From Candidatus Poribacteria bacterium (GTDB lineage: Bacteria > Poribacteria > WGA-4E > WGA-3G), in the NCBI GenBank assembly GCA_026710795.1, contig JAPOQK010000037.1, positions 37,514 through 101,513 of the forward strand: 64,000 nucleotides of DNA. The letters run 5' to 3'. The first letter of the stretch is position 1, and the number at the start of each line of letters is the position of its first letter. Shown here piece by piece: positions 36,911-50,950 of this stretch. The position numbers and the translations under genes are program-made. The notes beneath the pieces were generated by a model, which made no database searches, had not been told where the DNA came from, and saw only the letters and a program-made list of their open reading frames with translations.

Positions 36911-37705
36911 CTACTTCTTGATTTTCAGAGTGAAATCTTGTTTGACTTCACCCCCAGCAGCGATAGTAACAACTACAGGTTCTTTGTTATTATTACCACA
37001 GGTTTCATGCCAGTACCCTAACTTATATTCACCAGGGGGAACATTTTCAAGTGTGAATTCACCCTTTTCGTTAGTCACTGCGAAATATGGATGCGGAACA
37101 TAAGCGACCCATGCTTTCATCCATCCGTGGATATCGCATTTTACTTCAACCGGACCTTCAGCTGCTTTTGCAGATGCGAGTTTCATTCTTTTTCGATTTT
37201 TTGTCTGTTGTTTATTGATTGATGTGCGATTCTTTTTGGTACCAAAGATATGCACATTATGTGTCGCCTTGTCGTTATTCAATACCGTAAGAGCTGTTCC
37301 AACAGGAATGATCTGTACATGTGGATTGAATCGGCATTCCTTCTGATCAAGTTCTACCTTCGCATCCTTGTCGAATTCTTTTCCTTGCGTAATATCCATC
37401 AGGTAGACAATTGTATTTTTCAATGCCATGTCTTCACCAACGACAAGTGATTCGTCAAATTTTTCAACAACATCACAAACCTTTGGGTCTTTATTTATTG
37501 CGATTTTTTTCTTTTCAGGTACTTTACCCTCAAATTTTACAATACCGCTAATCTTTCCACCGTTGTTAACTGCAACGGGTTTATACGCTTCTTTAGAAAA
37601 AACGAGTTTATTCATCTCCTCTTCTTCGTGGTCGTCTGCGAATACAATCAGACCGAACCCACAAGCGAGGAGTAGCGCGAAACATACCAACATTTTAGTT
37701 TTCAT
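36911..37705 (-). CDS. Secreted cupredoxin-like (type-1 Cu) protein with a CarboxypepD_reg-like C-terminal domain
   Basis: It has a signal peptide and the candidate ligands HNVH ... CDIHGWM (C-x2-H-x2-M). The C-terminus has NEKGEFTLENVPPGEYKL, a beta-sandwich. It is a paralog of 43917..44684. Confidence 0.55.
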   Translation of the reverse strand: MKTKMLVCFALLLACGFGLIVFADDHEEEEMNKLVFSKEAYKPVAVNNGGKISGIVKFEGKVPEKKKIAINKDPKVCDVVEKFDESLVVGEDMALKNTIVYLMDITQGKEFDKDAKVELDQKECRFNPHVQIIPVGTALTVLNNDKATHNVHIFGTKKNRTSINKQQTKNRKRMKLASAKAAEGPVEVKCDIHGWMKAWVAYVPHPYFAVTNEKGEFTLENVPPGEYKLGYWHETCGNNNKEPVVVTIAAGGEVKQDFTLKIKK

Positions 37706-37853
37706 CTTTTTTCTCCTTTATTGGCATACATGTGAGATGCATTAAATTACCATTTTCTCATTAGAAATAAAAACTGCATCCAATGTTACGCCTTTATGAG
37801 TAATATAAAATATCAGATAAGAGGACATTTCTGTCACAATTTTTTCTACAACT

Positions 37854-39551
37854 TTATGTATTTCTCCGCTGTACAAAGCCTCGTAGACCAACTAATATGC
37901 CTAACGAGAGTAAAGCCACTAACGGAGGATATATAAATCTTTTGGATGAAGGCACAGGTTCAAGGACGAAGGAGTACCAACTTGAGATTACCCGTTTTGT
38001 GTCAACATCACCGTTTGCACCATCCCAAACTGAGAATGCGATTGGTACAAATTCACCTGGTTCTATTTGTAAATCTTTTTTATCATCGGTTTTTAATGCA
38101 CGTTTAATCCATAACCTATATTGTCCATCCGTGTATTTACCTTCTGCCTGAAGGTCGCCTTGAACTTCTTGAACTTCAGCTTTTGTGATTCCTTTTGCTG
38201 TAAGTTCTGTCACAGTGTCAGCAGCAGAAGCTTTCCATTGCCATAGATAGACAGCCTTCTTGCCACCCCAGAGAAAATAAGGTTTTGGGGCAGTTGGATC
38301 TTCTGGGATTTTGACTGGAAATTGGATTGCAATTGCGTCTTCGAAGGTTTTGCCAAGATCTTCGTCTTCCATTTCCTCAGTATTATTTGTCCGGTCATCC
38401 CATATAAAAAGAAAGGCAACTTCAGTATCATTGTAAAATGATTTTACATTTACTGAATCAATGGTTGGATTAAATTGACGCGGTTCTACAACGATCTGTC
38501 CAACCAGTGGAAAGTAACTTGCTTCAAGAGTCTCCCAAGCAGCATCATCTATTGTTGGTAATGTGTCTACTGTATATTGTGATCGAAGTGCATTTTTTCC
38601 GATTGCTGGTTCTGGTCTTTTTTCTGGTGCCAGAGATTTGACATAATTGGCAATATGCCAACTTTTTTCTTGAAACACTTTCATTGCTTCAGCATGTAAT
38701 TGTTTCTGTTCTTCATCTGCTAAACCTTCTGTCATCATATCTAAGATGTCATAAGCGTTTCCCATTTTTTCATCAAGTGAGTTAAATTCTTCATCCTCGG
38801 CATCAGTCATTTCAACCTTATTCTCCAATTGACCGTATCGTTGTGCTTCTTCTACACTTAAGCCAAAAGATGCATCTTCAAACATTGGCATAGCGGATCC
38901 TGCAATACCACCAATGAAACGTTTGTAAATATCCTCTGTACTGCTACCGCCTCTGAAATTCCAACTTTGTGCCAAATTTGCTGGCCAACTCTTAAAACCC
39001 CATTCATCTTGCAGGGTTGGTGCAGATGTACCATCACCGCGCCCCACGTTTCCGTGGCATTCAAAACACGCAAATTGGGCATAAAAGAACTTGCCTATTT
39101 CAACACTCTCTTCAGAATAAGGTATTTTACCTTCTAAACTAATTTCTATAGGAGGAGATTCATTCTCCTTAAAGCCTTCATAGAAGGTTTTGATATATGC
39201 CACAACTTCCCAACGTTCATCAGCACTTAGTGCAGATTCCCATTCTGGCATTGATGATCCGGGCATTCCTTTGGAAATGATGTCAAATAAATCTTTATCT
39301 GTAGGTAGTTCACCACCCGCTGTTGAACGAATTTTATATATTCCGCCAGTAAAATCTCTTGGTTGGGGTAGAAGGTTCTTTGCTGCACTGCCATCCCCGC
39401 GTCCTTCAACACCATGACAATGTGCGCAACTTTCCTCATACACCTCTTTTCCTTTTTCAGAGACTTCTGGCGCGTCTTGGGCATAAACCATGATATTAAC
39501 AGAGAATATGCTAAAGATAATGAAGGACAAGACATAAATTGATTTTCTCAT
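37854..39551 (-). CDS. Diheme c-type cytochrome with a large extra domain and C-terminal anchor
   Basis: It has a signal peptide, CAHCHG and CFECHG, and a C-terminal hydrophobic segment. Confidence 0.7.
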   Translation of the reverse strand: MRKSIYVLSFIIFSIFSVNIMVYAQDAPEVSEKGKEVYEESCAHCHGVEGRGDGSAAKNLLPQPRDFTGGIYKIRSTAGGELPTDKDLFDIISKGMPGSSMPEWESALSADERWEVVAYIKTFYEGFKENESPPIEISLEGKIPYSEESVEIGKFFYAQFACFECHGNVGRGDGTSAPTLQDEWGFKSWPANLAQSWNFRGGSSTEDIYKRFIGGIAGSAMPMFEDASFGLSVEEAQRYGQLENKVEMTDAEDEEFNSLDEKMGNAYDILDMMTEGLADEEQKQLHAEAMKVFQEKSWHIANYVKSLAPEKRPEPAIGKNALRSQYTVDTLPTIDDAAWETLEASYFPLVGQIVVEPRQFNPTIDSVNVKSFYNDTEVAFLFIWDDRTNNTEEMEDEDLGKTFEDAIAIQFPVKIPEDPTAPKPYFLWGGKKAVYLWQWKASAADTVTELTAKGITKAEVQEVQGDLQAEGKYTDGQYRLWIKRALKTDDKKDLQIEPGEFVPIAFSVWDGANGDVDTKRVISSWYSFVLEPVPSSKRFIYPPLVALLSLGILVGLRGFVQRRNT

Positions 39552-39553
39552 GA

Positions 39554-40315
39554 TTAATGTCCCACCTCACGGTATGAATAACCGGTATATTCGGATAAAA
39601 ATAGTATTACATCCCATATTTCATCTTTTTCAAGGTGGTCTTCCCAAATAGGCATTGCTGAATTCCACGGTGTGCCTTCTTTGGGCAATCCTGGTCCACC
39701 TTTACTAATTCGCCAAAAGAAGAAAGATTCTTGGAAATTTGGGATAATCCCTGGATCCTGAAAATTAGCCGGTAATGGATTTAACGCGTTAGCAAAATGT
39801 CCTTGTCCATCAAGATGATCTCCATGACAATAGAAGCAGTTATCATAATATACCTTTCTACCATTTTCAACGTGAGATTTGAATTCTTCTGGATCGTCTT
39901 TTTTCAAGTGCCGATAAGGATTTTCAGTATTTTCAAGGACTTCATCCTTGTATGTTAATTCTAAAGGTGGTGACGGATGTGCATCCCGTGGATCTCCTGG
40001 AGGACTTGCTTTTTGTGCTATATTTGTATAGGTATATCCTAAAACAAATAGAGGGATCAACACCACTAAAACTATCCTTCGTACTCTTTTATTTTCATCA
40101 ACAAGCGTTTCAATAATTGGACGGAGGAATTCACTTAATCTTGAGTCCTCAACAGATATGTGAACCAAGATGGCAATGAGAATTAATGCCATATACATTA
40201 CAATGACACTATTCGGTATAGGAACAGAGATTACACTCCCAACGATAAACCTTAAGAAGATCCAACATGCGATAAAGATTACAAGACATATTGTGAAAAG
40301 TGATGGTTTTCTCAT
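39554..40315 (-). CDS. Membrane-anchored monoheme cytochrome c
   Basis: It has two N-terminal helices and CFYCHGDH. Confidence 0.7.
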   Translation of the reverse strand: MRKPSLFTICLVIFIACWIFLRFIVGSVISVPIPNSVIVMYMALILIAILVHISVEDSRLSEFLRPIIETLVDENKRVRRIVLVVLIPLFVLGYTYTNIAQKASPPGDPRDAHPSPPLELTYKDEVLENTENPYRHLKKDDPEEFKSHVENGRKVYYDNCFYCHGDHLDGQGHFANALNPLPANFQDPGIIPNFQESFFFWRISKGGPGLPKEGTPWNSAMPIWEDHLEKDEIWDVILFLSEYTGYSYREVGH

Positions 40316-40358
40316 GGTCTACCTCCTTTACGATTGAACAATACTGAGATATAATGGA

Positions 40359-41888
40359 TTATTCAGGTGTTACTTCAGATGAATTATCTGTATTAATATC
40401 ACTTGCTTCTTCTGTTGTAACACCAGTTAAAGTACTTAAATATGCAAGAAGGTTTGCCATATCAACCACAGATAAATCATTGGGAAAGTTTGTTGGCATT
40501 GGTGATGTATCATGCAACTTTTTACCTGAAGCAACCATTATTATTGCTTCTTCAATATCAAACGGATCAAAACTTTCTTCACTTCCATCAACCATCAAAA
40601 CGATTTCGTCATCATCCATAGTACCTGACATATATTCACCAACGGTCTGTACGCCGTCAAAATCAGTAAGTGTCATCATCTTTTTCACATCAATCTTTGA
40701 TACGATGATTGTTTCCTCCCCAACCTTGAGTGTAACTGTGTCAACACTTTCCTCAACAATATCACCACTTATGGGAGAGTCAGAATCCATCGGTGTGATT
40801 GTTAGCGTGAAATATCCATTATCAATTAGATTTACAATGTCCTCTTCATCGATTGGTTCCTCATCAAAATCACTAAAGAGGATAGTGTGTTCCTGTTCAG
40901 TACCGTCTGCAGCTTTTGTTCGGACTATAACCTTATCAGTATCCTCCGATACAAGTGTTCCTTCATAGGTTATACCATTTGCTTTCACCTTGACTGTTCC
41001 ATAACCCGCGACAATTAATGCGTTAGGTAATAGTATTGACTCTTCAATATAACGCATACTGTTTAGTGCTGCAATGTCTGTTAATTCTGGTGCGGTAACA
41101 ACTTCAAAGTCTTCATTTACCTCACCTGCCTTTGGATTTTCAAGACCTTGCACAACATGACATGAAATACATGCAGCATCTATAAATACCTGTTTTCCTT
41201 TTTCAATATCTCCAGGAAGTAACGGTTCAAGTGCTTCAGCAGTTGTTCCCACATCCGCTCTATCTATCGGTTCGTCAAACGGTTCTGGATCAATTTCACC
41301 ACCTTGACTTTGTAGAAATGCTATGACTGCTTGAATCTCAACCTTAGAGAGTGCAATTGGATTTTTCCATATCTCTGGCATGATACTACCATATCCAGGG
41401 ACCAAATACTTACTCGGTTCATATAGAGATTCAATAAGGTATTGTTTTGCATTTAAACCGGGTTGTCTGGTCGCTGCGAGTACACCGATGTCTGTCAAAT
41501 CTGGACATCGTCCCTTTGGTGCTGAAGTGTCTAAGGTGTGGCAAGCACTACACTGTCCTTTGGTGTTAAAGATGCTTTCACCGATTTCAATTACTGCATC
41601 TGGGTCACTCCAATCTAATTCGGTTACTGTTCCAGTTCCAGTAGCTGTGCTTGGAACCCAAGCAGCTATAAGCGCAAAAAACCAGATAATAGACAAAGCA
41701 AATGTCAACAGTTTCATGACAATTCCCCATACAACCATATTTATCAGAACAGCAATAAGAAACCAGACAGACCAAGGCAGCAAATTTTCAGATCCAATTG
41801 GAAATGCTGGAGCCTTCGCAATAAATGCTATAAAACTCACTACCATTAATATTAGACCTGCGATTTTTATGATTGTATTTTTAGACAT
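40359..41888 (-). CDS. Membrane-anchored diheme cytochrome c with an acidic linker
   Basis: It has four N-terminal helices, CSACHT and CISCHV, and D/E-rich segments. Confidence 0.7.
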   Translation of the reverse strand: MSKNTIIKIAGLILMVVSFIAFIAKAPAFPIGSENLLPWSVWFLIAVLINMVVWGIVMKLLTFALSIIWFFALIAAWVPSTATGTGTVTELDWSDPDAVIEIGESIFNTKGQCSACHTLDTSAPKGRCPDLTDIGVLAATRQPGLNAKQYLIESLYEPSKYLVPGYGSIMPEIWKNPIALSKVEIQAVIAFLQSQGGEIDPEPFDEPIDRADVGTTAEALEPLLPGDIEKGKQVFIDAACISCHVVQGLENPKAGEVNEDFEVVTAPELTDIAALNSMRYIEESILLPNALIVAGYGTVKVKANGITYEGTLVSEDTDKVIVRTKAADGTEQEHTILFSDFDEEPIDEEDIVNLIDNGYFTLTITPMDSDSPISGDIVEESVDTVTLKVGEETIIVSKIDVKKMMTLTDFDGVQTVGEYMSGTMDDDEIVLMVDGSEESFDPFDIEEAIIMVASGKKLHDTSPMPTNFPNDLSVVDMANLLAYLSTLTGVTTEEASDINTDNSSEVTPE

Positions 41889-41914
41889 TTTTCTGTCCTC
41901 TAACTTGTCGTTTG

Positions 41915-43846
41915 TTAGTCATCACTTTCTACAGCCACTTCTGCTTCAATTGGTACTGCAACTTGCTTTTTCTTATCTCCCCAAAGTCCGAGCCAGAATA
42001 TAAATCCTACAAGAGCAAAGAATATAACCATAATGATTGAAACCATATTCACAGCACTGCTAAGTGACGGTGTAAATGCATCTACAGAGGTATCTTTCAT
42101 TACACCAAAGATATGCCATCCCTCGCGTAGGCCTGAACGTGCATATCCCATCAAACCCATCAGTGATGTAAATGTAATAGCGAGTAGTATTAGAACGTAC
42201 TGAGAACGATCTGACATCTGCCCCCAATTGATCGTTCCTGACATAGTGGCTTTTCGATACATGATTATATCAAGGACTGTTACGACAACCATTACACCGA
42301 GTGCTACTAAGACTTGCCACGGGGTCAGTACATTTACGCGTACATTAGTTTCGACTGTAAACCCAACAATACCGATAACTACGATTATAACCACACCTAA
42401 AAAGAAAATAGCTGAAATAAGGATATTTCCCACACCTTTCCAACCTACAATAGGTGTTTTGCCTGATCGTCTATAAAAGAGAAAACTTAGAAAGGTGGTT
42501 AAAATAACGATATTTACAACAGTATTTTTTGCTGTCATCAACCCGAAAAAGCCGAGATGTGGATGGTTTGCACCTCCCATCGCACTAAGCTCTGTTGCGG
42601 ATGATATTTTGGATAACGAACGTGGGGTCATCCAAATTGCTACACAGATAACAATTACTGTAATCATATAAGGACGAAACCGTGCATATATCTCCGCACC
42701 TTTAATACGTCCCATACCAGACCAAAGATAGTAGTTTGCTCCAATAAACAGCACCCCAATCATCACAGCTTGTAGGATAAATAACCACGAGAAGAGACTC
42801 CCCATCATGTTAATGCCCATCGTGTTATTGAAATCGTAGATTTCTTTACCTAACCAATAACCTGCAAATGGCAAAGGGATCAATCCGATCAATGCGATGA
42901 AATTTCCATTGTAACCCATCCAATCGTAATGTGCTTTATCCTCTTTGGATTTTGCCACGAGAAATCGAAATGCAGCATAGGCTGCTACAATAGATCCACC
43001 AAAAGCGATGTTGCCGATGAGTCGGTGTATATTGACTGGCATCCAGGTGAAGTTGTTTATGGCATCCCACACCGTACCCAAAAATTCACCTGTAGTTTCG
43101 TCATGGAGCGAGATTACAGTTGCATCAACCTTTGCTGCGGCTTCGGCTGCAGTTAACTCAGGATCCTGGGCTAACATCTCAGCCACCATCTGTTCCTTAT
43201 TAAAATCTGGTAAGTTTTCCTTGGTAGAATCTGATAACTTCTTGAACTGTGTTGCGGGACTCGTCTGATAAGTAAGCCAAGTGTTTGACACAAACATAAT
43301 CGCTGTGCCCCAGATGTTTAAGAGCACACCGAGGAAAAGGTGTACCCATTTAAACCTACCCTTCATCTTATCCCAACCGTAGTAATAGATGTAGAGTGTA
43401 AAGGTTTCACCGAAGAACAGTATGACGTAAAAAATCATCGTAGGACCGAAGATTCCGCTTAGCTTGCTCAATACTTTGGGGTAGCACCATACTAAAACAA
43501 AGACGAGAACACCACCAAGTAAGGCAGTTGTTGAAAATGCTCCCATACAGAGTTTGATGAACTCATATGCCATTCGGTCATACCGTTCTTCCTTGGTTTT
43601 CCAACCGATGAATTCAATGATAACAGCAAACATCGGCACACCGAGGATAAATGAACCAAACAACAGATGAAGTTGTGCAGCTATCCAGGCAGCATTGCGG
43701 CTTCCTATAAGAGGAAACGGACGGTATTCCTCATCAGTCATGTCTTGTGCGAATGCAGGTACTACTGCAAATAAGACAAAACCCAGCATCACAAGTGCTA
43801 ATATGAGATATATTCTCTTTAATGTATGAGAAGAACAACAACGCAT
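41915..43846 (-). CDS. Cytochrome bd-like protein (CydA superfamily), no adjacent CydB
   Basis: It aligns by eye with E. coli CydA at the heme b558 region (AAQLHLLFGSFILGVPMFAVIIEF vs AMYHFLFVPLTLGMAFLLAIMET) and at GETFTLYIYYYGWDKMKG...FVSNTWLTYQ vs ESTFVGLFFFGWDRLGK...LVANGWMQNP. At 643 aa it has extra C-terminal helices. Confidence 0.75.
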   Translation of the reverse strand: MRCCSSHTLKRIYLILALVMLGFVLFAVVPAFAQDMTDEEYRPFPLIGSRNAAWIAAQLHLLFGSFILGVPMFAVIIEFIGWKTKEERYDRMAYEFIKLCMGAFSTTALLGGVLVFVLVWCYPKVLSKLSGIFGPTMIFYVILFFGETFTLYIYYYGWDKMKGRFKWVHLFLGVLLNIWGTAIMFVSNTWLTYQTSPATQFKKLSDSTKENLPDFNKEQMVAEMLAQDPELTAAEAAAKVDATVISLHDETTGEFLGTVWDAINNFTWMPVNIHRLIGNIAFGGSIVAAYAAFRFLVAKSKEDKAHYDWMGYNGNFIALIGLIPLPFAGYWLGKEIYDFNNTMGINMMGSLFSWLFILQAVMIGVLFIGANYYLWSGMGRIKGAEIYARFRPYMITVIVICVAIWMTPRSLSKISSATELSAMGGANHPHLGFFGLMTAKNTVVNIVILTTFLSFLFYRRSGKTPIVGWKGVGNILISAIFFLGVVIIVVIGIVGFTVETNVRVNVLTPWQVLVALGVMVVVTVLDIIMYRKATMSGTINWGQMSDRSQYVLILLAITFTSLMGLMGYARSGLREGWHIFGVMKDTSVDAFTPSLSSAVNMVSIIMVIFFALVGFIFWLGLWGDKKKQVAVPIEAEVAVESDD

Positions 43847-43916
43847 ATCTTTTTCTCACTTATTAGGAACATCTTCAACAGAAAACATACTTTATATAAA
43901 TACAGTATAGAAAAAT

Positions 43917-44684: not shown

Positions 44685-44762
44685 CGTTTTTCTCCTTAAA
44701 ATAAATCTTTTTATTATATTAACACTTTAAGTTTTGAAATGGCAAACCCTAAAAAACAAACA

Positions 44763-44778
44763 TCACGGATATCCGTGT
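44763..44778. promoter_or_regulatory. Palindromic site TCACGGATATCCGTGT (15 of 16 symmetric), about 80 bp upstream of the cupredoxin gene
   Basis: It shares the 14 bp perfect palindrome CACGGATATCCGTG with the site at 50801..50816. Confidence 0.5.
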
Positions 44779-44782
44779 CTGT

Positions 44783-45139
44783 TTAAGGTCGGAAGGTTTT
44801 CTTTATATAACCGAGAAGTTCCTGTTGTTCTTTTGGATTGAGGTAATAGTGAAACGCAGGCATATCGTTCTTGCCACCACTTATGCTTTTAAGAAGCTGT
44901 GTATCGTCGTGCGTAATCCACAAATCACTATCAGTCAGATCTGCAGGATCTAATTTTTTGAAACGACCAATACGTCCATTCCCTTCACCACTGTTTCCAT
45001 GACATCCGGCACAGTATCTGGCATATTTGTATTCAACATCTGCCTGATATTTTGTGCGTGGGTCAATCTGTTTGCATAACCATATAAATCCGTTTATCCA
45101 AACAAATATCATGACGATTATAATCAGTAGATGTTTCAT
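44783..45139 (-). CDS. Membrane-anchored monoheme cytochrome c
   Basis: It has one N-terminal helix and CAGCHG. Confidence 0.7.
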   Translation of the reverse strand: MKHLLIIIVMIFVWINGFIWLCKQIDPRTKYQADVEYKYARYCAGCHGNSGEGNGRIGRFKKLDPADLTDSDLWITHDDTQLLKSISGGKNDMPAFHYYLNPKEQQELLGYIKKTFRP

Positions 45140-45185
45140 ACAAAACGGATACCCTGTGTAGTGATGAATGGAATCCGTTGCTACA

Positions 45186-48100
45186 CTAACGTCCTAAAGA
45201 GATTAAGTAATCACGAACTAACCTAATCTGTTTTTCTGCGTCATCATCCGCATAACCTTCAACTGGCATGTGTTGTCCCCCGACGAGTGGCCACGCCTGT
45301 GGCATCGCGGTACCGCGTTGGAATTGCTGTGGATTTTTCATCCAATCAATTAACCAATCCGCTTTAAGCCGCTGCTTCGCCAAGGATAAATCAGGTCTAC
45401 CCGCCTTGTCGCTACCTGCAGGTATTACTTCACCTTGTGAAGGATGACATGAATCGCATTTTAGTTCGTCAAAAATCTGTTTACCAGTTCGTAATTCTGC
45501 CTGAGTAGATGTAGGAAGTTCAATGGTCTCATAAGGGAAGGGTTCATTGTCTAAGGCAGAGAAGTATTTGATAAGTGTGGTTGCATCTTGATCCGACATA
45601 TCAAATGTTGGCATCCGCACTTTAAGTCCATATCGTATCTCCGAAGGATTCTTGAGGAAATCAAACAACCAATTAGGATAAACTCTTGCACCTTGCGCTT
45701 GCAGTGGTGGTGGTGATAGTTGCTTGGTAGTAATTGGATCTAAACCTTCGTGAGCAGTAATTACATTGCTATAGTCTCCACCTTCTCCCTCAATTACGTG
45801 GCATCCCGTACAGTTGTATCTTTTGACGACCCGTCTGCCAGCATCAATCTGGTTCTTTCTCTCAACACGATGAGATTCAACTGCATGATCATATATATAA
45901 TTTAATGGGTATGGTTGAGGTTGGAAACTCTTCAATAACACAGCGATAGACTTTGCTTCGTCATGATCAATCTGGAACACAGGCATACGTGAAACAATGC
46001 GGCGCGTTTGATAACGACGTGGGTCTGTGATTTTGCCAATAGTCCAACCGTGCCAACTATGTTCAACATCTTCCTCTAAAGTATCTCCAAAGTCAAGTTC
46101 GTCTGACAATTTTGCGCCAAATTCTCCAAGATCAGCACCTACCTTGGATTCATTCTCAAACCCTGGTATTTCGTGACAACCGAAACAACCATAAGTCCTA
46201 ACAAGTTTTTCACCTTCCTGCTTATCCTCTTCACCAATTGAATCAGAAATTGGTGATGGAGTTTGCTTCTGTAAACTCATTAAATATGCAACTACATTGT
46301 CAAGTTCACTATTGCTCAAACGCAAACTTGGCATTGAGGTGTCAGGATCATAATCTCTCGGATTTTCAATCCAACTCCGTAGATAACTCGGTTTGACCTT
46401 TGTACCTACACTGTCCAGAGCTGGCGCAAAATCGCTCCCTAAACCATCAACAGCATGGCATGATAGACATCCCACCGTTTTTACTGTCTCTTCACCTGCA
46501 CTTATATCACTTTCAGATTTCGAATATGTCCCTTGTGAAGCATCTATGGACTGATCGGTAAAATCTTTCAGATAGGCGGTAATAGATTTCACTTCATCAA
46601 CTATACGTAAAACATCATCTTTGGCATAAGGATATGTTGTTCCATCATCTGTTTTCAGAAGATAACCATTATCCGTTTCAGTGACAATACCAGTACGTTG
46701 TCCACCATTTTTGAAGTAGACAAGTTGGGTCATGCCATCTACTGGGAAGAAGTTAGGCATTGTCGTTTCCGGTAAATATGCTTCCGGTTTTTTAATCCAT
46801 TTTTCAAGCCAATCACCATCTTGCACTTTGCTGCCAATTTTGCTAAGCGATGGTCCAACCTTCTGAATTTTATCAATTGAACTATATCCTTCTACAGCAT
46901 GACACCCATGACATCCGAGATCTTCAAAAAGATCCATCCCTTTGGTTAGATTGGGTGCATAATCCACTGGCGCGTTTGTTTCAGAATTAACCCCGAAATC
47001 TAACTTCATTACACCATCATGACACCGTCGACAATTGGATTCCATGTATCCTTCTAATTCGTCCGATTTTCTTCCAGTGTGTTCATCTAATCCCAAGACA
47101 GGCGTTAACCAATATTCTGAATGTGTTAGTGCGTGTGCGGCTTTTGCGGTTAATCCGTGTCCTTGTCCACCGTGGCATGGTGTACAACCAAATTTTTCTA
47201 CTGGATGTTTCGCAAGAAGGACATCACGATGTGGGTGTGTCTGAAGGACTGAACGATAACCAGTCTCATAAGAAATTTCTACCTCACCAAATACATCCGG
47301 GTCAGTAAAGGTTAGGACACCATCCTCAGACAATTCATATTCATCAGCTTCTGCATCAAAACCATCAATTACTATTGTTTCATTACCGGGTTTTACCTTC
47401 GGGTGTTTGAGTTGGTGTTTGACAAGGTCTTCACCGTCACCTTCTATTTCAAATGTTTCTTCGGCATCGGGACCATAGCCACTTCTATCGACAGAGAAAT
47501 GACATGTTGCACACCGATCCGCGGTATAATCAAACTCTTCAAGATAATACTGTACGATTGTTCTGGTTTCTCGAAATGGATTTTCAAGAAGACTACCGAG
47601 GAAGGTACGTTTGATTCCACCTACATCTGCTAACTTCTCTTCAAGACGTGTGATTGCTTCAAGTTGTGCTTTATTCGCTTCGAGCGTGACAAGAGATTCT
47701 TGGGCAGTTGTTATTGCATTTGCAATTGTATCATCTGTAGGTTTATATTTTTGAGATATAAGATAGGTAGAAAGGGCATTAGTGGGATCACCACTGTTCT
47801 GGTAAAAATCGGCAAGGGTTTTGTTCGCATCAGCATATTCAACTTGTGCTGTTAGAACATTGGTAGTTAATTCACCTTCAATTCTTTTTTCGTATTCGTC
47901 TAATTTCTCTTTCCACTTTTCAACAGTATCATTATGCGTACCATGGGCTTCATGAAGGCTATGTTGGTATTTATAATTAATAGCATCTGATTTGCTTTGC
48001 TCAAACTTGCGTTCTTGCATTGCCTCATCCAATGCTACCTTTTTCGTTTCAACGATTTTCTCCAAATTTCCTAACTCTTTTGTATCTATCTGAGGTGCGG

Positions 48101-48338
48101 AGGGTTTTTCAGGTGGGTTCTGCTTTGCATGCTCCAATTCTGCCTTTGTCTTATCATATTCATATTGGTAAAACTGCTGCTGGATTTCCTTCCAAGGACG
48201 ACGCGTAATCATCTCATCCCAGAAACCCCATATCGTCACCAACCCTAATAGAGCTGATAATATAAAGAACAAAGCAGAATAAGATTTATTTTCTGCGGGA
48301 ATCTCTTTTTTGCTCCTCACGAAATGTATAACCTCCAA
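45186..48338 (-). CDS. Octaheme c-type cytochrome (bc-complex-associated), N-terminal anchor plus coiled coil
   Basis: It has eight CxxCH motifs (CATCHF, CTPCHG, CRRCHD, CHGCHA, CLSCHA, CFGCHE, CTGCHV, CDSCHP) across 1050 aa. Confidence 0.8.
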   Translation of the reverse strand: MEVIHFVRSKKEIPAENKSYSALFFILSALLGLVTIWGFWDEMITRRPWKEIQQQFYQYEYDKTKAELEHAKQNPPEKPSAPQIDTKELGNLEKIVETKKVALDEAMQERKFEQSKSDAINYKYQHSLHEAHGTHNDTVEKWKEKLDEYEKRIEGELTTNVLTAQVEYADANKTLADFYQNSGDPTNALSTYLISQKYKPTDDTIANAITTAQESLVTLEANKAQLEAITRLEEKLADVGGIKRTFLGSLLENPFRETRTIVQYYLEEFDYTADRCATCHFSVDRSGYGPDAEETFEIEGDGEDLVKHQLKHPKVKPGNETIVIDGFDAEADEYELSEDGVLTFTDPDVFGEVEISYETGYRSVLQTHPHRDVLLAKHPVEKFGCTPCHGGQGHGLTAKAAHALTHSEYWLTPVLGLDEHTGRKSDELEGYMESNCRRCHDGVMKLDFGVNSETNAPVDYAPNLTKGMDLFEDLGCHGCHAVEGYSSIDKIQKVGPSLSKIGSKVQDGDWLEKWIKKPEAYLPETTMPNFFPVDGMTQLVYFKNGGQRTGIVTETDNGYLLKTDDGTTYPYAKDDVLRIVDEVKSITAYLKDFTDQSIDASQGTYSKSESDISAGEETVKTVGCLSCHAVDGLGSDFAPALDSVGTKVKPSYLRSWIENPRDYDPDTSMPSLRLSNSELDNVVAYLMSLQKQTPSPISDSIGEEDKQEGEKLVRTYGCFGCHEIPGFENESKVGADLGEFGAKLSDELDFGDTLEEDVEHSWHGWTIGKITDPRRYQTRRIVSRMPVFQIDHDEAKSIAVLLKSFQPQPYPLNYIYDHAVESHRVERKNQIDAGRRVVKRYNCTGCHVIEGEGGDYSNVITAHEGLDPITTKQLSPPPLQAQGARVYPNWLFDFLKNPSEIRYGLKVRMPTFDMSDQDATTLIKYFSALDNEPFPYETIELPTSTQAELRTGKQIFDELKCDSCHPSQGEVIPAGSDKAGRPDLSLAKQRLKADWLIDWMKNPQQFQRGTAMPQAWPLVGGQHMPVEGYADDDAEKQIRLVRDYLISLGR

Positions 48339-48403
48339 GTCATTCGATAATAAGAGAACACATTTACAATAAACCGTTTTTGTCTAAAAAGAAGTCATAG
48401 AAA

Positions 48404-49270
48404 TTAAATGTTGAACCAAGGTGACACCCAAATATACTTCACATTCAATGCCAAACGTAAGATCATTTTTATCGGCAATGAAAGCATTGATAAAAACAAA
48501 AATGAAACGATAACATATCGAATCATTCCAAGTTCTTGTAAAAATTTACTACTTTTACATTTCCAGATATAAAATATTGGTCCGAGTGCGAAATAACCTG
48601 CGACAATAGCAAAACCGAAGAAATTTGCAGTCATATCATCACGAATACCGAAGAGATACGACAAATTTACGTTTGTTAATGGAACGAGTTTATGTGGATC
48701 CCAATATTCCCATGGCATAAATATGTTCCAACCTGGTCCTCTCAAGAAAGTACCTACTATCATCAAAACTATCCATAGTATTATGAACCCGAAACTAAAC
48801 ACAGCAAGTGCAAACGGTCGTTCTTTGATTGTATAGTATCCCTTTCCTTTAGGGTTGATATCAATGTACGGAATAGCGATAAGACCAACGATTATAAGTC
48901 CGGGTAATACAACACCTGCTATCCACGGATCAAAGTAGACCAACATCTCTTGTAAGGCGAGAAAATACCAAGGAGCCTTGGATGGGTTCGGTGTTTTGGC
49001 GGGATCACTCATCTCCTCAAGTGGTGCATCAATCATAATTGACCAAACACCCAAAATCAACATGATGATAATTGCACAGATAAACTCATTGCGACATAGA
49101 TATGGCCACACGTAAACCTTATCATTCAACGCAGCATCGGATGGAACACCTGTTCGATCAGTTTGCCGTGCCTGCTTATATGACAACCAGATAAAGAAAG
49201 GTATTAAAAAAAGCATAGCCAAAATCGGAACATTATCGGGTTTCGTTATCAGCAGTAGTAAATTGTCCAT
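48404..49270 (-). CDS. Cytochrome b C-terminal part (subunit IV / PetD-like, extended)
   Basis: It has the PEWY-equivalent KAPWYFLALQEML plus additional helices. Confidence 0.7.
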   Translation of the reverse strand: MDNLLLLITKPDNVPILAMLFLIPFFIWLSYKQARQTDRTGVPSDAALNDKVYVWPYLCRNEFICAIIIMLILGVWSIMIDAPLEEMSDPAKTPNPSKAPWYFLALQEMLVYFDPWIAGVVLPGLIIVGLIAIPYIDINPKGKGYYTIKERPFALAVFSFGFIILWIVLMIVGTFLRGPGWNIFMPWEYWDPHKLVPLTNVNLSYLFGIRDDMTANFFGFAIVAGYFALGPIFYIWKCKSSKFLQELGMIRYVIVSFLFLSMLSLPIKMILRLALNVKYIWVSPWFNI

Positions 49271-49382
49271 ATCTAAATCCGTTCTCCTTCAAAAAGGGAT
49301 ATTACAATCTTCTAAAACTTATACCATGTGAGTAGTCTTACGTATATATATTACTGACAATACTATTTACATTTGCCATAGA

Positions 49383-50153
49383 TTATAGAGGTCCGGATAT
49401 TCCACCATCTTTACGAACACGCCAAAAATGTAGTGCCATCAACAGACTTGCTACCAAGGGGACAGCAATACAATGCAATATATAGAACCTTAACAACGTT
49501 GACGGTCCGACGATAGTACCTCCAAGCAATGCAAATCTGACATCGTTTGCTTGTGTAATGTCTGGAGGGGCAAATGGACCTTCATGTCCTAATACTGGTG
49601 TAGCACGTGCCATATTCGTTCCAACAGTTACTGCCCAATATGCCAATTGGTCCCATGGAAGCAAATAACCAGTGAAACTCAGAAAGAATGTGATTAGCAA
49701 TAAAATCACACCCACAGCCCAGTTGAACTCACGTGGTTTTTTGTATGAACCTGTCAAAAAAACCCTAAACATGTGGAGCATCACAGAAATTACCATACCG
49801 TGTGCAGCCCAACGGTGCATATTGCGTAGAAGCATCCCGAAGGGAATGTCAAATTCAAGTGCCTGTACATCTCGAAAAGCATATTCGGCAACAGGTCTAT
49901 AGTAGAACATGAGCAAAACCCCTGTGACGGCTGTCACAAGGAACATAAGGAAGGTAATACCACCCATACACCAAGTAAAACGGAAGTTTAAAGCGTGGCG
50001 AGAAATTCGGGGAGGGTGCAGGTGCAGCCACACGTTTTGCAAAACTTGTAATGTGTAACGGCGACCGGTTTTTTCGTATCCATGACGAAATATTGATTTC
50101 CAAATATCAGAATTTGTTATCTTATCTTTTAGCCCTTTATGTTCTTCGTTCAT
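49383..50153 (-). CDS. Cytochrome b6-like (N-terminal four-helix heme b part of a split cytochrome b)
   Basis: It has the His ligands in HRWAAHGMV and HMFRVF and four helices. Confidence 0.85.
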   Translation of the reverse strand: MNEEHKGLKDKITNSDIWKSIFRHGYEKTGRRYTLQVLQNVWLHLHPPRISRHALNFRFTWCMGGITFLMFLVTAVTGVLLMFYYRPVAEYAFRDVQALEFDIPFGMLLRNMHRWAAHGMVISVMLHMFRVFLTGSYKKPREFNWAVGVILLLITFFLSFTGYLLPWDQLAYWAVTVGTNMARATPVLGHEGPFAPPDITQANDVRFALLGGTIVGPSTLLRFYILHCIAVPLVASLLMALHFWRVRKDGGISGPL

Positions 50154-50213
50154 TATTATCCTTTTCAGTCCGATGACGCATTACATCTCATCAGACGCAA
50201 TCTTCCCCTTAAG

Positions 50214-50699
50214 TTAGACTTTTAAAGATGCACCAGGGTCACCCCATTGACCTTTTTCACCCAAAAACTTTACAGATTTATCAATTTGCAATTGACCATC
50301 CTCTGCCAAAGTTATCTTTACTCGTTCAAGAGGACGTGGTGCCGGACCTTCATAGTTGATACCGTCCCGGTCGAAACCGCTTCCGTGGCAGGGACATTTA
50401 AATTTATTTTCAGAGGAGAGCCAACGCGGGGTACATCCTAAGTGGGTACAGGTCGTAAGTAGTGCGTAAAATTCCCCATCTTCGCGTCGGACTATCCAAA
50501 CCCCAAAAGGTTCTTTTTTATATTTTTCGCTGACGCTACCCGAAGGATATTCTGCTGGAAAACCCGCTTTAAAGATAGATGACGGTTCATACAGAACACG
50601 TGGATATAAGTATCTAACTAAACCTGGTCCAAAACATAAACCAAGTGCAGCCGTGAAACTTCCCCAACCGAGTGCTGTGAAAAAATTTCGTCGAGACAA
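50214..50699 (-). CDS. Rieske [2Fe-2S] protein with Tat signal
   Basis: It has SRRNFF and CTHLGC...CPCHGS. Confidence 0.85.
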   Translation of the reverse strand: MSRRNFFTALGWGSFTAALGLCFGPGLVRYLYPRVLYEPSSIFKAGFPAEYPSGSVSEKYKKEPFGVWIVRREDGEFYALLTTCTHLGCTPRWLSSENKFKCPCHGSGFDRDGINYEGPAPRPLERVKITLAEDGQLQIDKSVKFLGEKGQWGDPGASLKV

Positions 50700-50800: not shown

Positions 50801-50816
50801 TCACGGATATCCGTGA
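50801..50816. promoter_or_regulatory. Perfect 16 bp palindrome TCACGGATATCCGTGA, about 100 bp upstream of the Rieske gene
   Basis: It is read directly from the sequence. It is the second copy of the motif seen at 44763..44778. Confidence 0.55.
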
Positions 50817-50930: not shown

Positions 50931-50950
50931 AATGGACGGGTAAAAACCCG
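50931..50950 (-). terminator. Intrinsic terminator of the upstream secreted-protein gene
   Basis: GGACGGGT-TTTT-ACCCGTCC is a perfect 8 bp stem. On the minus strand it is followed by AUUUUCUGUU, about 45 nt after the stop. Confidence 0.55.

What the first reader, a model, noticed from the sequence alone, without database searches (positions are those of the whole stretch)
36911..50699. About 14 kb respiratory module: Rieske, split cytochrome b, octaheme cytochrome c, monoheme c, cupredoxin, bd-like protein, two diheme c and a second cupredoxin, contiguous with an aa3 oxidase operon
The bc-type complex has a b6/subunit-IV-like split cytochrome b and an octaheme c subunit (eight CxxCH) in place of cytochrome c1. 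It is directly followed by blue-copper proteins, further c-type cytochromes and the bd-like protein. Next comes an ABC-2 exporter, then coxB, ctaD, ctaA, ctaB, coxC and SCO1. The arrangement suggests a dedicated electron-transfer chain, possibly a supercomplex, from quinol to O2 with unusual intermediates. Two cupredoxin paralogs share HNVH/CDIH.WM ligand motifs and a CarboxypepD_reg-like domain.
Basis: partly seen in the sequence, partly recalled or inferred. Interest (0 to 1): 0.55.

Follow-up and report, generated by a model that had tools for sequence, protein, structure and literature searches.

The report
Poribacterial three-module aerobic respiratory gene island
This stretch of a sponge-associated Poribacteria genome encodes a conserved chain of respiratory proteins from quinol to oxygen, built from protein families already described by bioinformatics; its main value is that it places a poorly understood "cytochrome bd-like" complex, known from nitrite oxidisers, in an ordinary aerobic setting.

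Summary
All genes lie on the minus strand. An ABC-2 exporter and an aa3 oxidase set follow.

The organism is Candidatus Poribacteria, and the whole order is kept across the phylum. The cluster is three separable modules, not one exotic bc complex:
- a b6f-like Rieske/cyt b complex with a Poribacteria-specific octahaem subunit;
- an OR-N2-type bd-like complex, the same module that sits in nxr clusters of Nitrospira, Nitrospina and Kuenenia, here without NXR;
- an A-type haem-copper oxidase.

The bd-like core occurs in at least 591 species. It often directly abuts aa3 genes and an AhbD/NirJ-like radical-SAM (rSAM) / PCP_red / Mrp / Usp gene set that is also present downstream in this window.

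A perfect 14-bp palindrome precedes both the Rieske unit and the cupredoxin-1 unit and is conserved in 12 of 15 Poribacteria loci. This suggests co-regulation.

Most likely the locus is a branched quinol-to-O2 chain with two terminal acceptors. The chemistry of the bd-like complex remains unproven. I rate it a new variant of a known kind, of moderate interest.

The parts
50934..50953 (-). Terminator-like hairpin after the upstream PPC-domain gene; marks the upstream boundary of the cluster
   Evidence: 8-bp stem with 6 GC pairs followed by a T run; sequence read.
50802..50815 (.). Palindrome CACGGATATCCGTG, copy 1, 103 bp upstream of the Rieske start; candidate operator
   Evidence: Two exact copies in 64 kb against 0.09 expected. 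Conserved 100-161 bp upstream of Rieske in Poribacteria loci.
50214..50699 (-). Rieske [2Fe-2S] subunit with a Tat-type N-terminus (SRRNFF)
   Evidence: Pfam Rieske 44 bits; closest NCBIfam model is b6f PetC, below cut-off. Motif CTHLGC...CPCH.
49383..50153 (-). Cytochrome b6-like N-terminal half of a split cytochrome b
   Evidence: Pfam Cytochrome_B 151.6 bits. NCBIfam ExtP 275 bits and b6 203 bits. 44% identity to cyanobacterial b6, with the four His ligands, the haem ci Cys (C62) and the same C-terminal split point.
48404..49270 (-). Subunit-IV-like C-terminal half of cytochrome b, extended to 288 aa with about 6 hydrophobic helices; Qo motif reads APWY
   Evidence: Pfam Cytochrom_B_C 29.6 bits; NCBIfam ExtQ and cytb6_f_IV; hydropathy.
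45186..48338 (-). Membrane-anchored octahaem cytochrome c, about 1030-1050 aa (start codon uncertain); the c-type subunit candidate of the Rieske/cyt b complex
   Evidence: Eight CxxCH motifs, kept in 14 of 14 orthologues. One N-terminal TM helix. 464 homologues, all named ones from Poribacteria. No relative in the PDB.
44783..45139 (-). Small monohaem class-I cytochrome c with a hydrophobic N-terminus
   Evidence: Cytochrome_CBB3 40.6 bits and one CxxCH. Related monohaem c genes precede the bd-like gene in Acidobacteriota loci.
44764..44777 (.). Palindrome CACGGATATCCGTG, copy 2, 80 bp upstream of cupredoxin 1; candidate operator of the second unit
   Evidence: It stays in front of cup1 even where 2-4 kb of foreign genes separate the units (L007, L010, L016).
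43917..44684 (-). Cupredoxin-like protein 1 with signal peptide (HNVH...CDIHAWM)
   Evidence: Copper-bind 19.7 bits, below the gathering threshold; weak amicyanin hit. 30% identical to cupredoxin 2, with the same ligand motif.
41915..43846 (-). CydA-like 643-aa membrane protein of the OR-N2 type (cytochrome bd-like)
   Evidence: Pfam Cyt_bd_oxida_I 70.8 bits on the N-terminal part only. H60, Y140, E147, H169, H274 and M437 are conserved in 79 sequences and fit the OR-N2 signature of Murali et al.. 12-14 predicted helices.
40359..41888 (-). Dihaem cytochrome c with two N-terminal TM helices; homologue of Kuenenia Kustd1711
   Evidence: PDB 7zs0, E = 7e-38 over residues 57-339. Two CxxCH motifs.
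39554..40315 (-).
   Evidence: Present next to the bd-like gene in 69 of 80 loci.
37854..39551 (-). Dihaem cytochrome c fused to an EB_dh (NxrC/EbdC-like) domain with a C-terminal TM anchor ('alternative NxrC' type)
   Evidence: EB_dh 78.6 bits. DMSO-reductase type II haem b subunit model 94.5 bits. PDB 6h5l_B E = 7e-47, 7b04_C (NXR-C) E = 1e-11, 2ivf_C.
36911..37705 (-). Cupredoxin-like protein 2 (amicyanin-type loop C190-x2-H193-x2-M196, with H149)
   Evidence: AF2 model pLDDT 88.4. Foldseek matches to amicyanin and plastocyanin, target TM-score about 0.7. Ligands at least 90% conserved in 43 sequences from several phyla.
35193..36904 (-). ABC-2 type exporter (ATPase 35987-36904, permease 35193-35975); substrate unknown; Poribacteria-specific insertion between the bd-like module and the cox genes
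   Evidence: Pfam ABC_tran and ABC2_membrane. DrrA/DrrB-like by NCBIfam. Absent at this position in other phyla.
29659..35139 (-). A-type haem-copper oxidase genes: coxB (34480-35139), ctaD (32495-34462), ctaA (31470-32414), ctaB (30534-31460), cox3 (29659-30252)
   Evidence: CoxB TIGR02866 scores 173 bits against a cut-off of 148. CtaB scores 271 bits against 210. CuA motif found.
26708..28411 (-). Second COX3 (27740-28411), COX4_pro (27389-27733) and the SCO1/SenC copper chaperone (26708-27367)
17582..26424 (-). Co-directional accessory set. Genes: Usp plus 3 PCP_red domains (24490-26424); PQQ-like propeller (22688-23974); Mrp/ApbC Fe-S carrier (21810-22691); PCP_red protein (21225-21761); CopD/UPF0093-like (20105-20560); AhbD/NirJ-family radical SAM/SPASM plus PCP_red (18797-20101); PhyH-like (18005-18730); PCP_red (17582-17995). 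Candidate haem-handling or maturation genes for the bd-like module
   Evidence: The Mrp / PCP_red / Usp-PCP_red / rSAM quartet lies directly beside the bd-like module in about 39 of 65 non-Poribacteria loci.

Best explanation
The region is a phylum-conserved Poribacterial aerobic respiratory gene island made of separable modules that together carry electrons from quinol to O2.

Module 1 is a b6f-type Rieske/cytochrome b complex. It has a split cytochrome b, a haem ci cysteine and an APWY Qo motif. Its c-type subunit is a membrane-anchored, Poribacteria-specific octahaem cytochrome, followed by a small monohaem c.

Module 2 is an OR-N2-type cytochrome bd-like membrane complex. It comprises a CydA-like protein with about 14 TM helices, a Kustd1711-like dihaem c, a 3-TM monohaem c, a dihaem c/EB_dh 'alternative NxrC', and two amicyanin-type cupredoxins.

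Module 3 is an A-type (aa3) haem-copper oxidase with haem A synthesis genes and SCO1.

Proposed mechanism:
- The Rieske/b complex oxidises quinol.
- Electrons leave through the octahaem wire to periplasmic or membrane-tethered high-potential carriers (monohaem c, cupredoxins, the membrane-bound c cytochromes).
- The carriers feed two terminal acceptors: the bd-like complex, acting as a cytochrome c/cupredoxin-dependent O2 (small-molecule) reductase, and the aa3 oxidase.

Shown: gene content, conserved ligands, conserved order, the shared upstream palindrome, and homology of the partner proteins to nxr-cluster proteins.

Inferred: the direction of electron flow, O2 reduction by the bd-like protein, and co-transcription.
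For: - Family assignments and ligand checks.
- Full gene order is kept in all 15 Poribacteria loci, down to roughly 50-70% protein identity.
- The bd-like protein keeps the equivalents of CydA H19 (H60), E107 (E147), H126 (H169), H186 (H274) and M393 (M437), with Tyr at the E99 position. This is the OR-N2 pattern.
- Murali et al. describe OR-N2 operons with several cytochromes c plus an EbdC homologue, and they list Poribacteria as carrying OR-N.
- The Nitrospinota and Nitrospirales comparative-genomics papers treat OR-N enzymes as putative cytochrome-c-dependent O2 reductases.
- c509 is homologous to Kustd1711, a +350 mV dihaem c. This fits a position between complex III and O2.
- A quinol-oxidising complex lies directly upstream of the bd-like module, as in the Nitrospira CIII_1/bd-like_2 cluster.
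- The palindrome is shared by the two units and conserved.
- The bd-like module is tightly linked to an AhbD/NirJ-family radical SAM and PCP_red proteins. This hints at a specialised, possibly catalytic, haem.
Against: - No OR-N enzyme has been purified, and O2 reduction is unproven.
- According to the literature, the same module type occurs in strictly anaerobic anammox bacteria.
- In Gemmatimonadota, Methylomirabilota/Rokubacteria and Chloroflexi the module is fused to aa3 genes with no complex III nearby. This looks more like an ACIII-aa3 arrangement than like two oxidases.
- In 17 loci an ActA/ActB-like module without ActC precedes it.
- The EB_dh domain lacks the Met haem ligand of EbdC and NXR-C.
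- The structure model of the bd-like protein failed (pLDDT 49.9).
- Promoter-like hits are no more frequent than in shuffled sequence.
Confidence: 0.45

Rival explanations
1. The bd-like module is not an oxidase. It is an ACIII-like quinol:cytochrome c/cupredoxin oxidoreductase (possibly reversible) whose membrane subunit is the CydA-like protein. It passes electrons through its c haems and cupredoxin 2 to the CuA site of the adjacent aa3 oxidase. In Poribacteria it would run in parallel with the Rieske/cyt b complex.
For: - The order BD-c509-c253-cEB-Cu2-coxB-ctaD is contiguous and co-oriented in about 30 loci of Gemmatimonadota, Rokubacteria/Methylomirabilota and Chloroflexi, with no Rieske/cyt b gene within 10 kb.
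- ActA/ActB-like genes without ActC sit directly upstream in 17 loci.
- CoxB has no fused cytochrome c, and cupredoxin 2 is its immediate neighbour in those phyla.
- Luecker et al. 2013 and Mundinger et al. 2019 proposed an ACIII-like or quinone-interacting role for this cluster type.
- This reading also explains the module's presence in anaerobic anammox bacteria.
Against: - The Q-loop and known quinol-binding residues of CydA are missing.
- The haem site equivalent to the O2-reducing site and the E107-type residue are conserved.
- The module would be redundant with the Rieske/cyt b complex encoded immediately upstream under the same palindrome.
- The link to a haem-modifying radical SAM fits a catalytic haem better than a purely electron-transferring one.
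Confidence: 0.3
2. All products assemble into one obligate quinol:O2 supercomplex (Rieske/b + octahaem + bd-like + aa3), with no freely diffusing carriers.
For: - Most carriers are membrane-anchored.
- The gene order is conserved across the phylum.
- A comparable supercomplex idea exists for the Nitrospira CIII_1/bd-like cluster.
Against: - The modules occur independently in other phyla.
- In some Poribacteria the modules are separated by a transposase and transporter genes.
- Both cupredoxins and the monohaem c look like small carriers.
- There is no physical evidence.
Confidence: 0.12
3. The bd-like module serves as membrane anchor and electron acceptor for a periplasmic molybdoenzyme such as NXR, so the locus would belong to nitrite oxidation or another lithotrophic pathway.
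For: - The EB_dh subunit resembles NXR-C and EbdC.
- The same module sits in nxr clusters.
- ActB-like (molybdopterin-family) genes precede it in Acidobacteriota loci.
Against: - No NxrA/B-like or other molybdopterin oxidoreductase gene was found among the ORFs annotated in the 64-kb window.
- None was found in the Poribacteria flanks.
- At least 591 species carry the module, and most are not known nitrite oxidisers.
Confidence: 0.05

Closest known systems
OR-N2 subfamily of the cytochrome bd superfamily (Murali, Gennis & Hemp 2021; bioRxiv 10.1101/2021.01.16.426971)
   Same: - CydA-like N-terminal four helices with the H19 equivalent.
- Tyr at the E99 position and Glu at the E107 position, 7 residues apart.
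- H186 and M393 equivalents.
- About 14 helices and no Q-loop.
- Operon with several cytochromes c and an EbdC homologue.
- Poribacteria already listed as carrying OR-N.
   Different: - Here the module also has a petA/petB/petD-type unit directly upstream, a context the authors ascribe to OR-N1 and OR-N5.
- It has two cupredoxins and an aa3 operon downstream.
- I did not run the authors' classification HMMs.
Accessory electron-transfer gene set of the nxr clusters of Kuenenia, Nitrospira (bd-like_3 / alt_NxrC_2) and Nitrospina (Luecker 2013, PMC3578206; Mundinger 2019, PMC6606698)
   Same: - Same composition: a bd-like 14-TM protein, two membrane-bound c cytochromes, an NxrC-like protein with a TM helix and two haem c motifs (about 62 kDa), and cupredoxin-like proteins.
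- c509 matches the Kustd1711 crystal structure sequence at E = 7e-38, and cEB matches NXR-C.
   Different: - There are no nxrAB, TorD-like chaperone or multicopper oxidase genes here.
- The neighbours are a Rieske/cyt b complex and an aa3 oxidase, in a presumed heterotrophic aerobe.
- Orthology of the CydA-like protein itself to kustd1709 was not tested directly.
b6f-like ('green clade', groups A1/A2) Rieske/cytochrome b complexes of Planctomycetes, Kuenenia and Geobacter (Baymann et al. 2012, PMC3509893; NCBIfam ExtP/ExtQ)
   Same: - Cytochrome b is split at the b6/subunit IV position.
- The cysteine for haem ci is present.
- Four His ligands are present.
- Near-threshold match to ExtP (275 bits against a cut-off of 290).
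   Different: - The subunit-IV-like protein is 288 aa with about 6 helices.
- The Qo motif is APWY.
- The c-type partner is a 1050-aa octahaem protein found only in Poribacteria. It is not cytochrome f, c1, a dihaem c or an HAO-like octahaem.
Alternative complex III - caa3/aa3 gene clusters and supercomplex (e.g. PDB 6btm, 6f0k)
   Same: - A multi-haem membrane complex encoded directly upstream of an A-type oxidase.
- Weak similarity of the c domains to ActE.
- ActA/ActB-like genes precede the bd-like module in 17 loci.
   Different: - There is no NrfD-type ActC/ActF subunit; the membrane subunit is CydA-like.
- Quinol oxidation by it is hypothetical.

Membership tests
b6f-type Rieske/cytochrome b complex | Rieske [2Fe-2S] ligand boxes CxH...CxxH and export signal | tested here: met
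   CTHLGC...CPCH at residues 84-105, N-terminal SRRNFF, Pfam Rieske 44 bits.
b6f-type Rieske/cytochrome b complex | Four His ligands for haems bL/bH; split after helix D; Cys for haem ci | tested here: met
   H113, H127, H227, H242 and C62 align with b6 H86, H100, H187, H202 and C35. The C-terminus ends ...GISGPL. Overall identity is 44%.
b6f-type Rieske/cytochrome b complex | Subunit IV with a PEWY-type Qo motif and three helices | tested here: inconclusive
   Cytochrom_B_C scores 29.6 bits. The motif reads APWY, and the protein has about 6 hydrophobic segments in 288 aa.
b6f-type Rieske/cytochrome b complex | Cytochrome f or c1-type monohaem subunit | tested here: not met
   An octahaem 1050-aa cytochrome c takes this place, with no cytochrome f or c1 family hit.
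OR-N2 cytochrome bd-like family | CydA homology with the H19 equivalent; Y/E at the E99/E107 positions; H186/M393 equivalents | tested here: met
   PF01654 scores 70.8 bits. H60, Y140, E147, H274 and M437 are at least 90% conserved in 79 sequences, compared with Suppl. Table 6 of Murali et al..
OR-N2 cytochrome bd-like family | No Q-loop or quinol site; 14 TM helices | tested here: inconclusive
   The Pfam match covers only profile positions 3-239 of 418. Hydropathy finds 12 helices and the low-confidence AF2 model about 14. Quinol-site residues were not aligned explicitly.
OR-N2 cytochrome bd-like family | Operon with several cytochromes c and an EbdC homologue | tested here: met
   The order c509, c253, cEB follows the bd-like gene in 68-78 of 80 loci.
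OR-N2 cytochrome bd-like family | Placement by the authors' subfamily HMMs or phylogeny; O2 reductase activity | not testable with these tools
   The HMMs are not available here, and no OR-N enzyme has been characterised.
nxr-cluster electron-transfer module | Bd-like protein, two membrane c cytochromes, alt-NxrC and cupredoxins | tested here: met
   Composition. Kustd1711 homology at E = 7e-38 and NXR-C at E = 1e-11. Literature description.
nxr-cluster electron-transfer module | Genomic association with nxrAB | tested here: not met
   No molybdopterin oxidoreductase was found among the annotated ORFs of the window or in the Poribacteria flanks.
Type 1 (blue) copper cupredoxin | Cupredoxin fold with a His...Cys-xn-His-xm-Met ligand set | tested here: met
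   AF2 pLDDT 88.4. Foldseek probability 1.0 to amicyanin, plastocyanin and Cupredoxin_1, target TM-score about 0.7. H149, C190, H193 and M196 are conserved. The Pfam Copper-bind score is below threshold. Copper binding itself is untested.
A-type haem-copper oxidase (aa3) | CoxB with CuA, CtaD, COX3, haem O/A synthases and SCO1 | tested here: met
   TIGR02866 scores 173 bits (cut-off 148). CtaD scores 624 bits, just under the cut-off of 671. CtaB scores 271 bits (cut-off 210). CuA motif found. SCO1 scores 103 bits.

The most novel reading that the evidence does not exclude
The OR-N2 bd-like module, together with its almost always adjacent AhbD/NirJ-family radical SAM, PCP_red-domain proteins, Mrp Fe-S carrier and Usp-PCP_red protein, is a widespread respiratory complex not yet recognised as such. 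It occurs in at least 591 species across more than 8 phyla. It would carry a specially modified haem and would act as the dedicated partner of A-type oxidases, independent of nitrite oxidation. As that partner it would be either an ACIII-like quinol oxidoreductase or a second, high-affinity O2 reductase. Poribacteria would be a case where it is additionally wired to a Rieske/cyt b complex through a lineage-specific octahaem cytochrome, under one palindromic operator.
Probability: 0.2. Interest if true: 0.8.

Novelty: new variant of a known kind. Interest (0 to 1): 0.45.

Why it matters
OR-N 'bd-like' oxidases are assumed to be the terminal oxidases of Nitrospira and Nitrospinota, yet none has been characterised. 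Their function is a standing open question in nitrifier and anammox bioenergetics.

This locus, and the comparative picture around it, show that the nxr-cluster type of module is not specific to nitrite oxidisers:
- It is conserved in heterotrophic sponge symbionts and in many soil phyla.
- It is repeatedly coupled to aa3 oxidases, to complex-III-like front ends and to a candidate haem-modification system.

That gives concrete, testable alternatives (an O2 reductase versus an ACIII-like quinol oxidoreductase) and points to new model contexts. For Poribacteria it defines the core aerobic chain and a candidate regulatory element. This is relevant to life in sponge tissue, where oxygen levels fluctuate.

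Tried and rejected
1. AlphaFold2 of the bd-like protein. Only Poribacteria homologues (70-96% identity) were permitted in the alignment. The model had pLDDT 49.9, so I did not use it for fold search or residue mapping.
2. A 25-sequence alignment of diverse bd-like proteins was too divergent for the locus scan. A 12-sequence alignment worked.
3. PDB sequence searches. The octahaem protein gave nothing useful. The bd-like protein gave only 23-bit N-terminal CydA hits, so no OR-N structure exists.
4. Sigma-70 promoter scans were at shuffle level (48 found against 49.8 expected, and 46 against 53.3). I discarded them as evidence. Terminator-like sites are modestly enriched in 34-51.5 kb (20 against 11.1), but only the hairpin at 50953-50934 is convincing.
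5. Literature searches for a described Poribacteria respiratory cluster, or for a link between bd-like oxidases and AhbD/NirJ radical SAM enzymes, found nothing in the held library. This is not proof that none exists.
6. Nitrite oxidation reading: rejected for lack of nxrAB (see rival explanations).
7. HAO-like octahaem, as in the anammox R/b complexes: rejected. There is no HAO-family hit, and the protein is built from c7-like and class-I c domains.
8. I considered the ABC-2 pair as a NosFY- or CcmAB-like maturation exporter. NCBIfam places it nearest DrrAB and the ABC systems associated with PQQ-dependent alcohol dehydrogenases, so its function stays open.

Full report
**Observation**

The window has about 40% GC. 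All genes of interest lie on the minus strand, so the cluster reads from 50699 downwards. Pfam and NCBIfam results give this order:
- Rieske, 50214-50699;
- a b6-like cytochrome b N-terminal half, 49383-50153;
- a subunit-IV-like C-terminal half, 48404-49270;
- a 1050-aa cytochrome c, 45186-48338;
- a 118-aa monohaem c, 44783-45139;
- cupredoxin-like protein 1, 43917-44684;
- a 643-aa CydA-like protein, 41915-43846;
- a 509-aa dihaem c, 40359-41888;
- a 253-aa monohaem c, 39554-40315;
- a 565-aa dihaem c fused to an EB_dh domain, 37854-39551;
- cupredoxin-like protein 2, 36911-37705;
- an ABC ATPase and an ABC-2 permease;
- coxB, ctaD, ctaA, ctaB and cox3;
- an N6/N4 DNA methyltransferase;
- a second cox3, a cox4 and SCO1.

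Intergenic gaps are 2-148 bp within the 14-kb span.

The large cytochrome has eight CxxCH motifs that use all 16 of its cysteines. Shuffles of its own composition give a mean of 0.005 motifs. Four details need correcting: one monohaem c was omitted, the EB_dh fusion was not noticed, the cox genes are interrupted, and the Pfam support for the cupredoxin and CarboxypepD_reg calls is weak.

**Organism and conservation**

Homologues of the CydA-like protein, cupredoxin 2 and the octahaem protein at 70-100% identity are all annotated as Candidatus Poribacteria. The flanking PSCyt2/PSD1, DUF1501, sulfatase and WD40 genes fit that lineage. Identical copies of the locus occur in several metagenome assemblies.

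A scan of one genome per species found at least 591 species encoding a relative of the CydA-like protein, and 80 loci were retrieved. I ran BLASTP of all locus ORFs against the window proteins. Every Poribacteria locus keeps the complete order: Rieske, bN, bC, octahaem, c, cup1, BD, c509, c253, cEB, cup2, ABC, coxB, ctaD, ctaA.

Outside Poribacteria the relatives come from Acidobacteriota, Gemmatimonadota, Rokubacteria/Methylomirabilota, Chloroflexi, Latescibacterota, Nitrospinae, Rhodothermales and Myxococcota. There the conserved core is BD, c509, c253, cEB, often with cup2. No Rieske or cytochrome b gene lies within 10 kb of it.

**Module 1: the Rieske/cytochrome b complex**

- The Rieske protein has CTHLGC...CPCHGSGF and a Tat-like SRRNFF N-terminus.
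The four haem His ligands, the Cys that binds haem ci in b6f, and the same C-terminal split point all align.
- It nearly reaches the NCBIfam ExtP model (275 bits against a cut-off of 290).
- Split cytochromes b with the ci cysteine are already documented in Planctomycetes, Kuenenia and Geobacter (Baymann et al. 2012).
- The subunit-IV-like protein is unusually long, at 288 aa with about 6 hydrophobic segments. It reads APWY where PEWY is expected.
- The octahaem protein has one N-terminal TM helix. Its first four haem motifs lie in c7-like/FixO-like regions, and four class-I c domains follow.
- It has no PDB relative and only 464 database homologues at E <= 1e-10. All named ones are from Poribacteria. 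The CydA-like protein has 7426 hits by comparison, though at a looser E-value cutoff (<= 1e-5).
- It keeps eight motifs in all 14 orthologues.

It therefore looks like a lineage-specific replacement for cytochrome c1 or f. It is not an HAO-like octahaem of the kind found in anammox complexes.

**Module 2: the bd-like complex**

*The CydA-like protein.* It matches Pfam Cyt_bd_oxida_I only over its N-terminal part. Its best PDB alignment and conservation across 79 sequences from many phyla identify these equivalents:

| Residue here | Equivalent in E. coli CydA |
|---|---|
| H60 | H19 |
| Y140 | E99 position |
| E147 | E107 |
| H169 | near H126 |
| H274 and M437-x3-N441 | H186 and M393 |

H428 and H578 are further invariant histidines. 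This pattern is the one tabulated for OR-N2 by Murali, Gennis and Hemp, and it is not the OR-N1 pattern. The same authors state that OR-N2 operons contain several cytochromes c and an EbdC homologue. They link OR-N1 and OR-N5 to petABD, and they list Poribacteria as carrying OR-N.

*The partner proteins.* These tie the module to the accessory genes of nxr clusters.
- c509 matches the crystal-structure sequence of Kuenenia Kustd1711 (7zs0, E = 7e-38). Kustd1711 is a Ca-bound dihaem c with a potential of about +350 mV.
- The N-terminal dihaem part of cEB matches 6h5l chain B (E = 7e-47).
- The EB_dh part of cEB matches Kuenenia NXR-C (7b04_C) and EbdC.
- Luecker et al. 2013 and Mundinger et al. 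2019 describe exactly this set as conserved among Kuenenia, Nitrospira and Nitrospina: a bd-like 14-TM protein, two membrane-bound c cytochromes, an alternative NxrC with a TM helix and two haem c motifs, and cupredoxin-like proteins.
- No nxrAB-like gene was found among the annotated ORFs of this window.

*The cupredoxins.* An AF2 model of cupredoxin 2 (pLDDT 88.4, pTM 0.83) matches amicyanin, plastocyanin and other cupredoxins at Foldseek probability 1.0 and target TM-score of about 0.7. The ligand set H149, C190-x2-H193-x2-M196 has amicyanin-type spacing. It is at least 90% conserved in 43 homologues from several phyla.

*A caveat on the EB_dh domain.* It has Leu where EbdC Met108 and the NXR-C Met align, and it has a conserved Tyr425 nearby. 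Whether it binds haem b is open.

**Module 3 and beyond**

CoxB (with a CuA motif), CtaD, CtaA, CtaB, two COX3 paralogues, COX4_pro and SCO1 define an A-type oxidase.

Further downstream on the same strand lie:
- a Usp protein with three PCP_red domains;
- a PQQ-like propeller;
- an Mrp/ApbC Fe-S carrier;
- small PCP_red proteins;
- a CopD/UPF0093-like protein;
- a radical SAM/SPASM protein with a PCP_red tail.

The closest NCBIfam models for the radical SAM protein are AhbD haem b synthase (327 bits) and NirJ2 (311 bits), both below cut-off.

The Mrp / PCP_red / Usp-PCP_red / rSAM quartet lies directly beside the bd-like core in about 39 of 65 non-Poribacteria loci. It sits either upstream or downstream, and it is present whether or not cox genes are. 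I found no paper linking these genes to bd-like oxidases. The association suggests a dedicated tetrapyrrole-handling or maturation system. That is an inference.

**Context variants in other phyla**

The bd-like core occurs in three contexts:
1. In Poribacteria it follows a Rieske/cyt b unit.
2. In 17 loci, mostly Acidobacteriota, it follows a pentahaem ActA-like gene, an ActB-like gene and a monohaem c, with no ActC.
3. In Gemmatimonadota, Rokubacteria/Methylomirabilota and Chloroflexi it is followed immediately by cup2, coxB, ctaD and further cox genes.

**Regulation**

A strong terminator-like hairpin (50953-50934) follows the upstream PPC gene.

The perfect palindrome CACGGATATCCGTG occurs exactly twice in the 64-kb window, against 0.09 expected by chance. 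One copy is 103 bp upstream of Rieske and the other 80 bp upstream of cupredoxin 1. Both copies are conserved without mismatch at the same relative positions in 12 of 15 Poribacteria loci. None occurs in the other 65 loci.

In L007, L010 and L016 the two units are 2-4 kb apart. In L010 the intervening genes are two periplasmic binding proteins and a DDE transposase. In all three loci the palindrome stays in front of cup1.

The cluster is therefore best seen as at least two transcription units under one candidate operator. They are separable in evolution but co-regulated.

**Mechanism**

The reading I commit to has a probability of about 0.45. Quinol is oxidised by the b6-type complex. Electrons pass through the octahaem subunit to high-potential periplasmic carriers. 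The carriers feed both the OR-N2 complex, acting as a cytochrome c/cupredoxin-dependent O2 (small-molecule) reductase, and the aa3 oxidase.

Arguments for this reading:
- The haem site equivalent to the O2-reducing site is conserved, together with a Glu of the proton path.
- A complex III sits directly upstream.
- Published opinion holds that OR-N enzymes are cytochrome-c-dependent oxidases.
- The link to a haem-modifying enzyme family fits a catalytic haem.

The main rival has a probability of about 0.3. It holds that the module is an ACIII-like quinol oxidoreductase that delivers electrons to aa3 through cupredoxin 2. Three things support it: the operon fusion with aa3 in several phyla, the ActAB-without-ActC context, and the module's presence in anaerobic anammox bacteria.

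A single obligate supercomplex, or an NXR-type role, is less likely.

**Novelty and score**

The component families and even the operon types are already described bioinformatically. What is new here:
- the combination in one phylum-wide conserved island;
- the Poribacteria-specific octahaem subunit;
- the conserved palindrome;
- the cross-phylum association of the OR-N2 core with aa3 genes and a candidate haem-maturation set.

I rate it a new variant of a known kind, with interest 0.45.

Noticed in passing
window 50802-50815 and 44764-44777; also L001-L003, L006-L010, L014-L016, L022: A perfect 14-bp palindrome, CACGGATATCCGTG, occurs only twice in the window, upstream of the Rieske gene and upstream of the cupredoxin-1 gene. 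It is conserved at both places in 12 of 15 Poribacteria loci and absent elsewhere. It is a candidate operator for an unknown regulator.
   Followed up: yes
window 17582-26424 (minus strand); L012, L013, L017, L019, L021, L028, L031-L041, L047-L080: An AhbD/NirJ-family radical SAM/SPASM protein with a PCP_red tail, small PCP_red proteins, an Mrp Fe-S carrier and a Usp protein with three PCP_red domains lie downstream of the cox genes here. The same set lies directly next to the bd-like core in about 39 of 65 loci from other phyla. It may be a haem-maturation system. I found no literature link.
   Followed up: partly
L017 5411-9800; similar in L018-L021, L024, L027, L053, L062, L064, L067, L070, L077, L078: In Acidobacteriota-type loci the bd-like gene is directly preceded by a pentahaem ActA-like cytochrome, an ActB-like molybdopterin/Fe-S protein and a monohaem c, with no ActC between them. 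This is an ACIII periplasmic arm joined to a CydA-like membrane protein.
   Followed up: partly
window 28509-29378 and 59199-59969: Two N6/N4 DNA methyltransferase genes. One is inserted between the two COX3 paralogues inside the oxidase cluster, and identical metagenome copies (L081-L083) keep it there. No restriction enzyme partner was looked for.
   Followed up: no
L010 5053-8658 (also gaps in L007 and L016): In some Poribacteria two periplasmic binding protein genes and a DDE transposase sit between the monohaem c gene and the cupredoxin-1 gene. This shows that the Rieske unit and the bd-like unit are separable.
   Followed up: partly
window 37854-39551 (protein residues about 420-430 and 515-520): The EB_dh domain has Leu where the axial Met of EbdC and NXR-C aligns, and a Lys one position off the EbdC Lys201. 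A Tyr (Y425) is conserved across 48 orthologues. The haem b ligation of this 'alternative NxrC' may differ or be lost.
   Followed up: partly
window 48404-49270: The subunit-IV-like half of cytochrome b is 288 aa with about six hydrophobic segments, and it carries APWY instead of the PEWY Qo motif.
   Followed up: no
window 40359-41888: In the Kustd1711-like dihaem c, the only conserved candidate distal Met for the second haem is M464. It lies about 220 residues after the CxxCH motif, which implies a much larger inserted ('nose'-type) domain than in Kustd1711. The protein also has two N-terminal TM helices.
   Followed up: no
window 35193-36904 and 22688-23974: The ABC-2 exporter is closest to DrrAB and to the ABC system associated with PQQ-dependent alcohol dehydrogenases. 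Cupredoxin 2 has a faint PQQ-associated (MSMEG_3727) hit, and a PQQ-like beta-propeller gene lies downstream. The meaning is unclear.
   Followed up: no
window 53674-57672, 60062-63236, 5662-6888: The flanks hold a PSCyt2/PSD1 and DUF1501 gene pair, a sulfatase and a WD40 protein, all typical of PVC-type and Poribacteria genomes. A MoeA molybdopterin biosynthesis gene lies far downstream. No molybdoenzyme gene was seen in the window.
   Followed up: no
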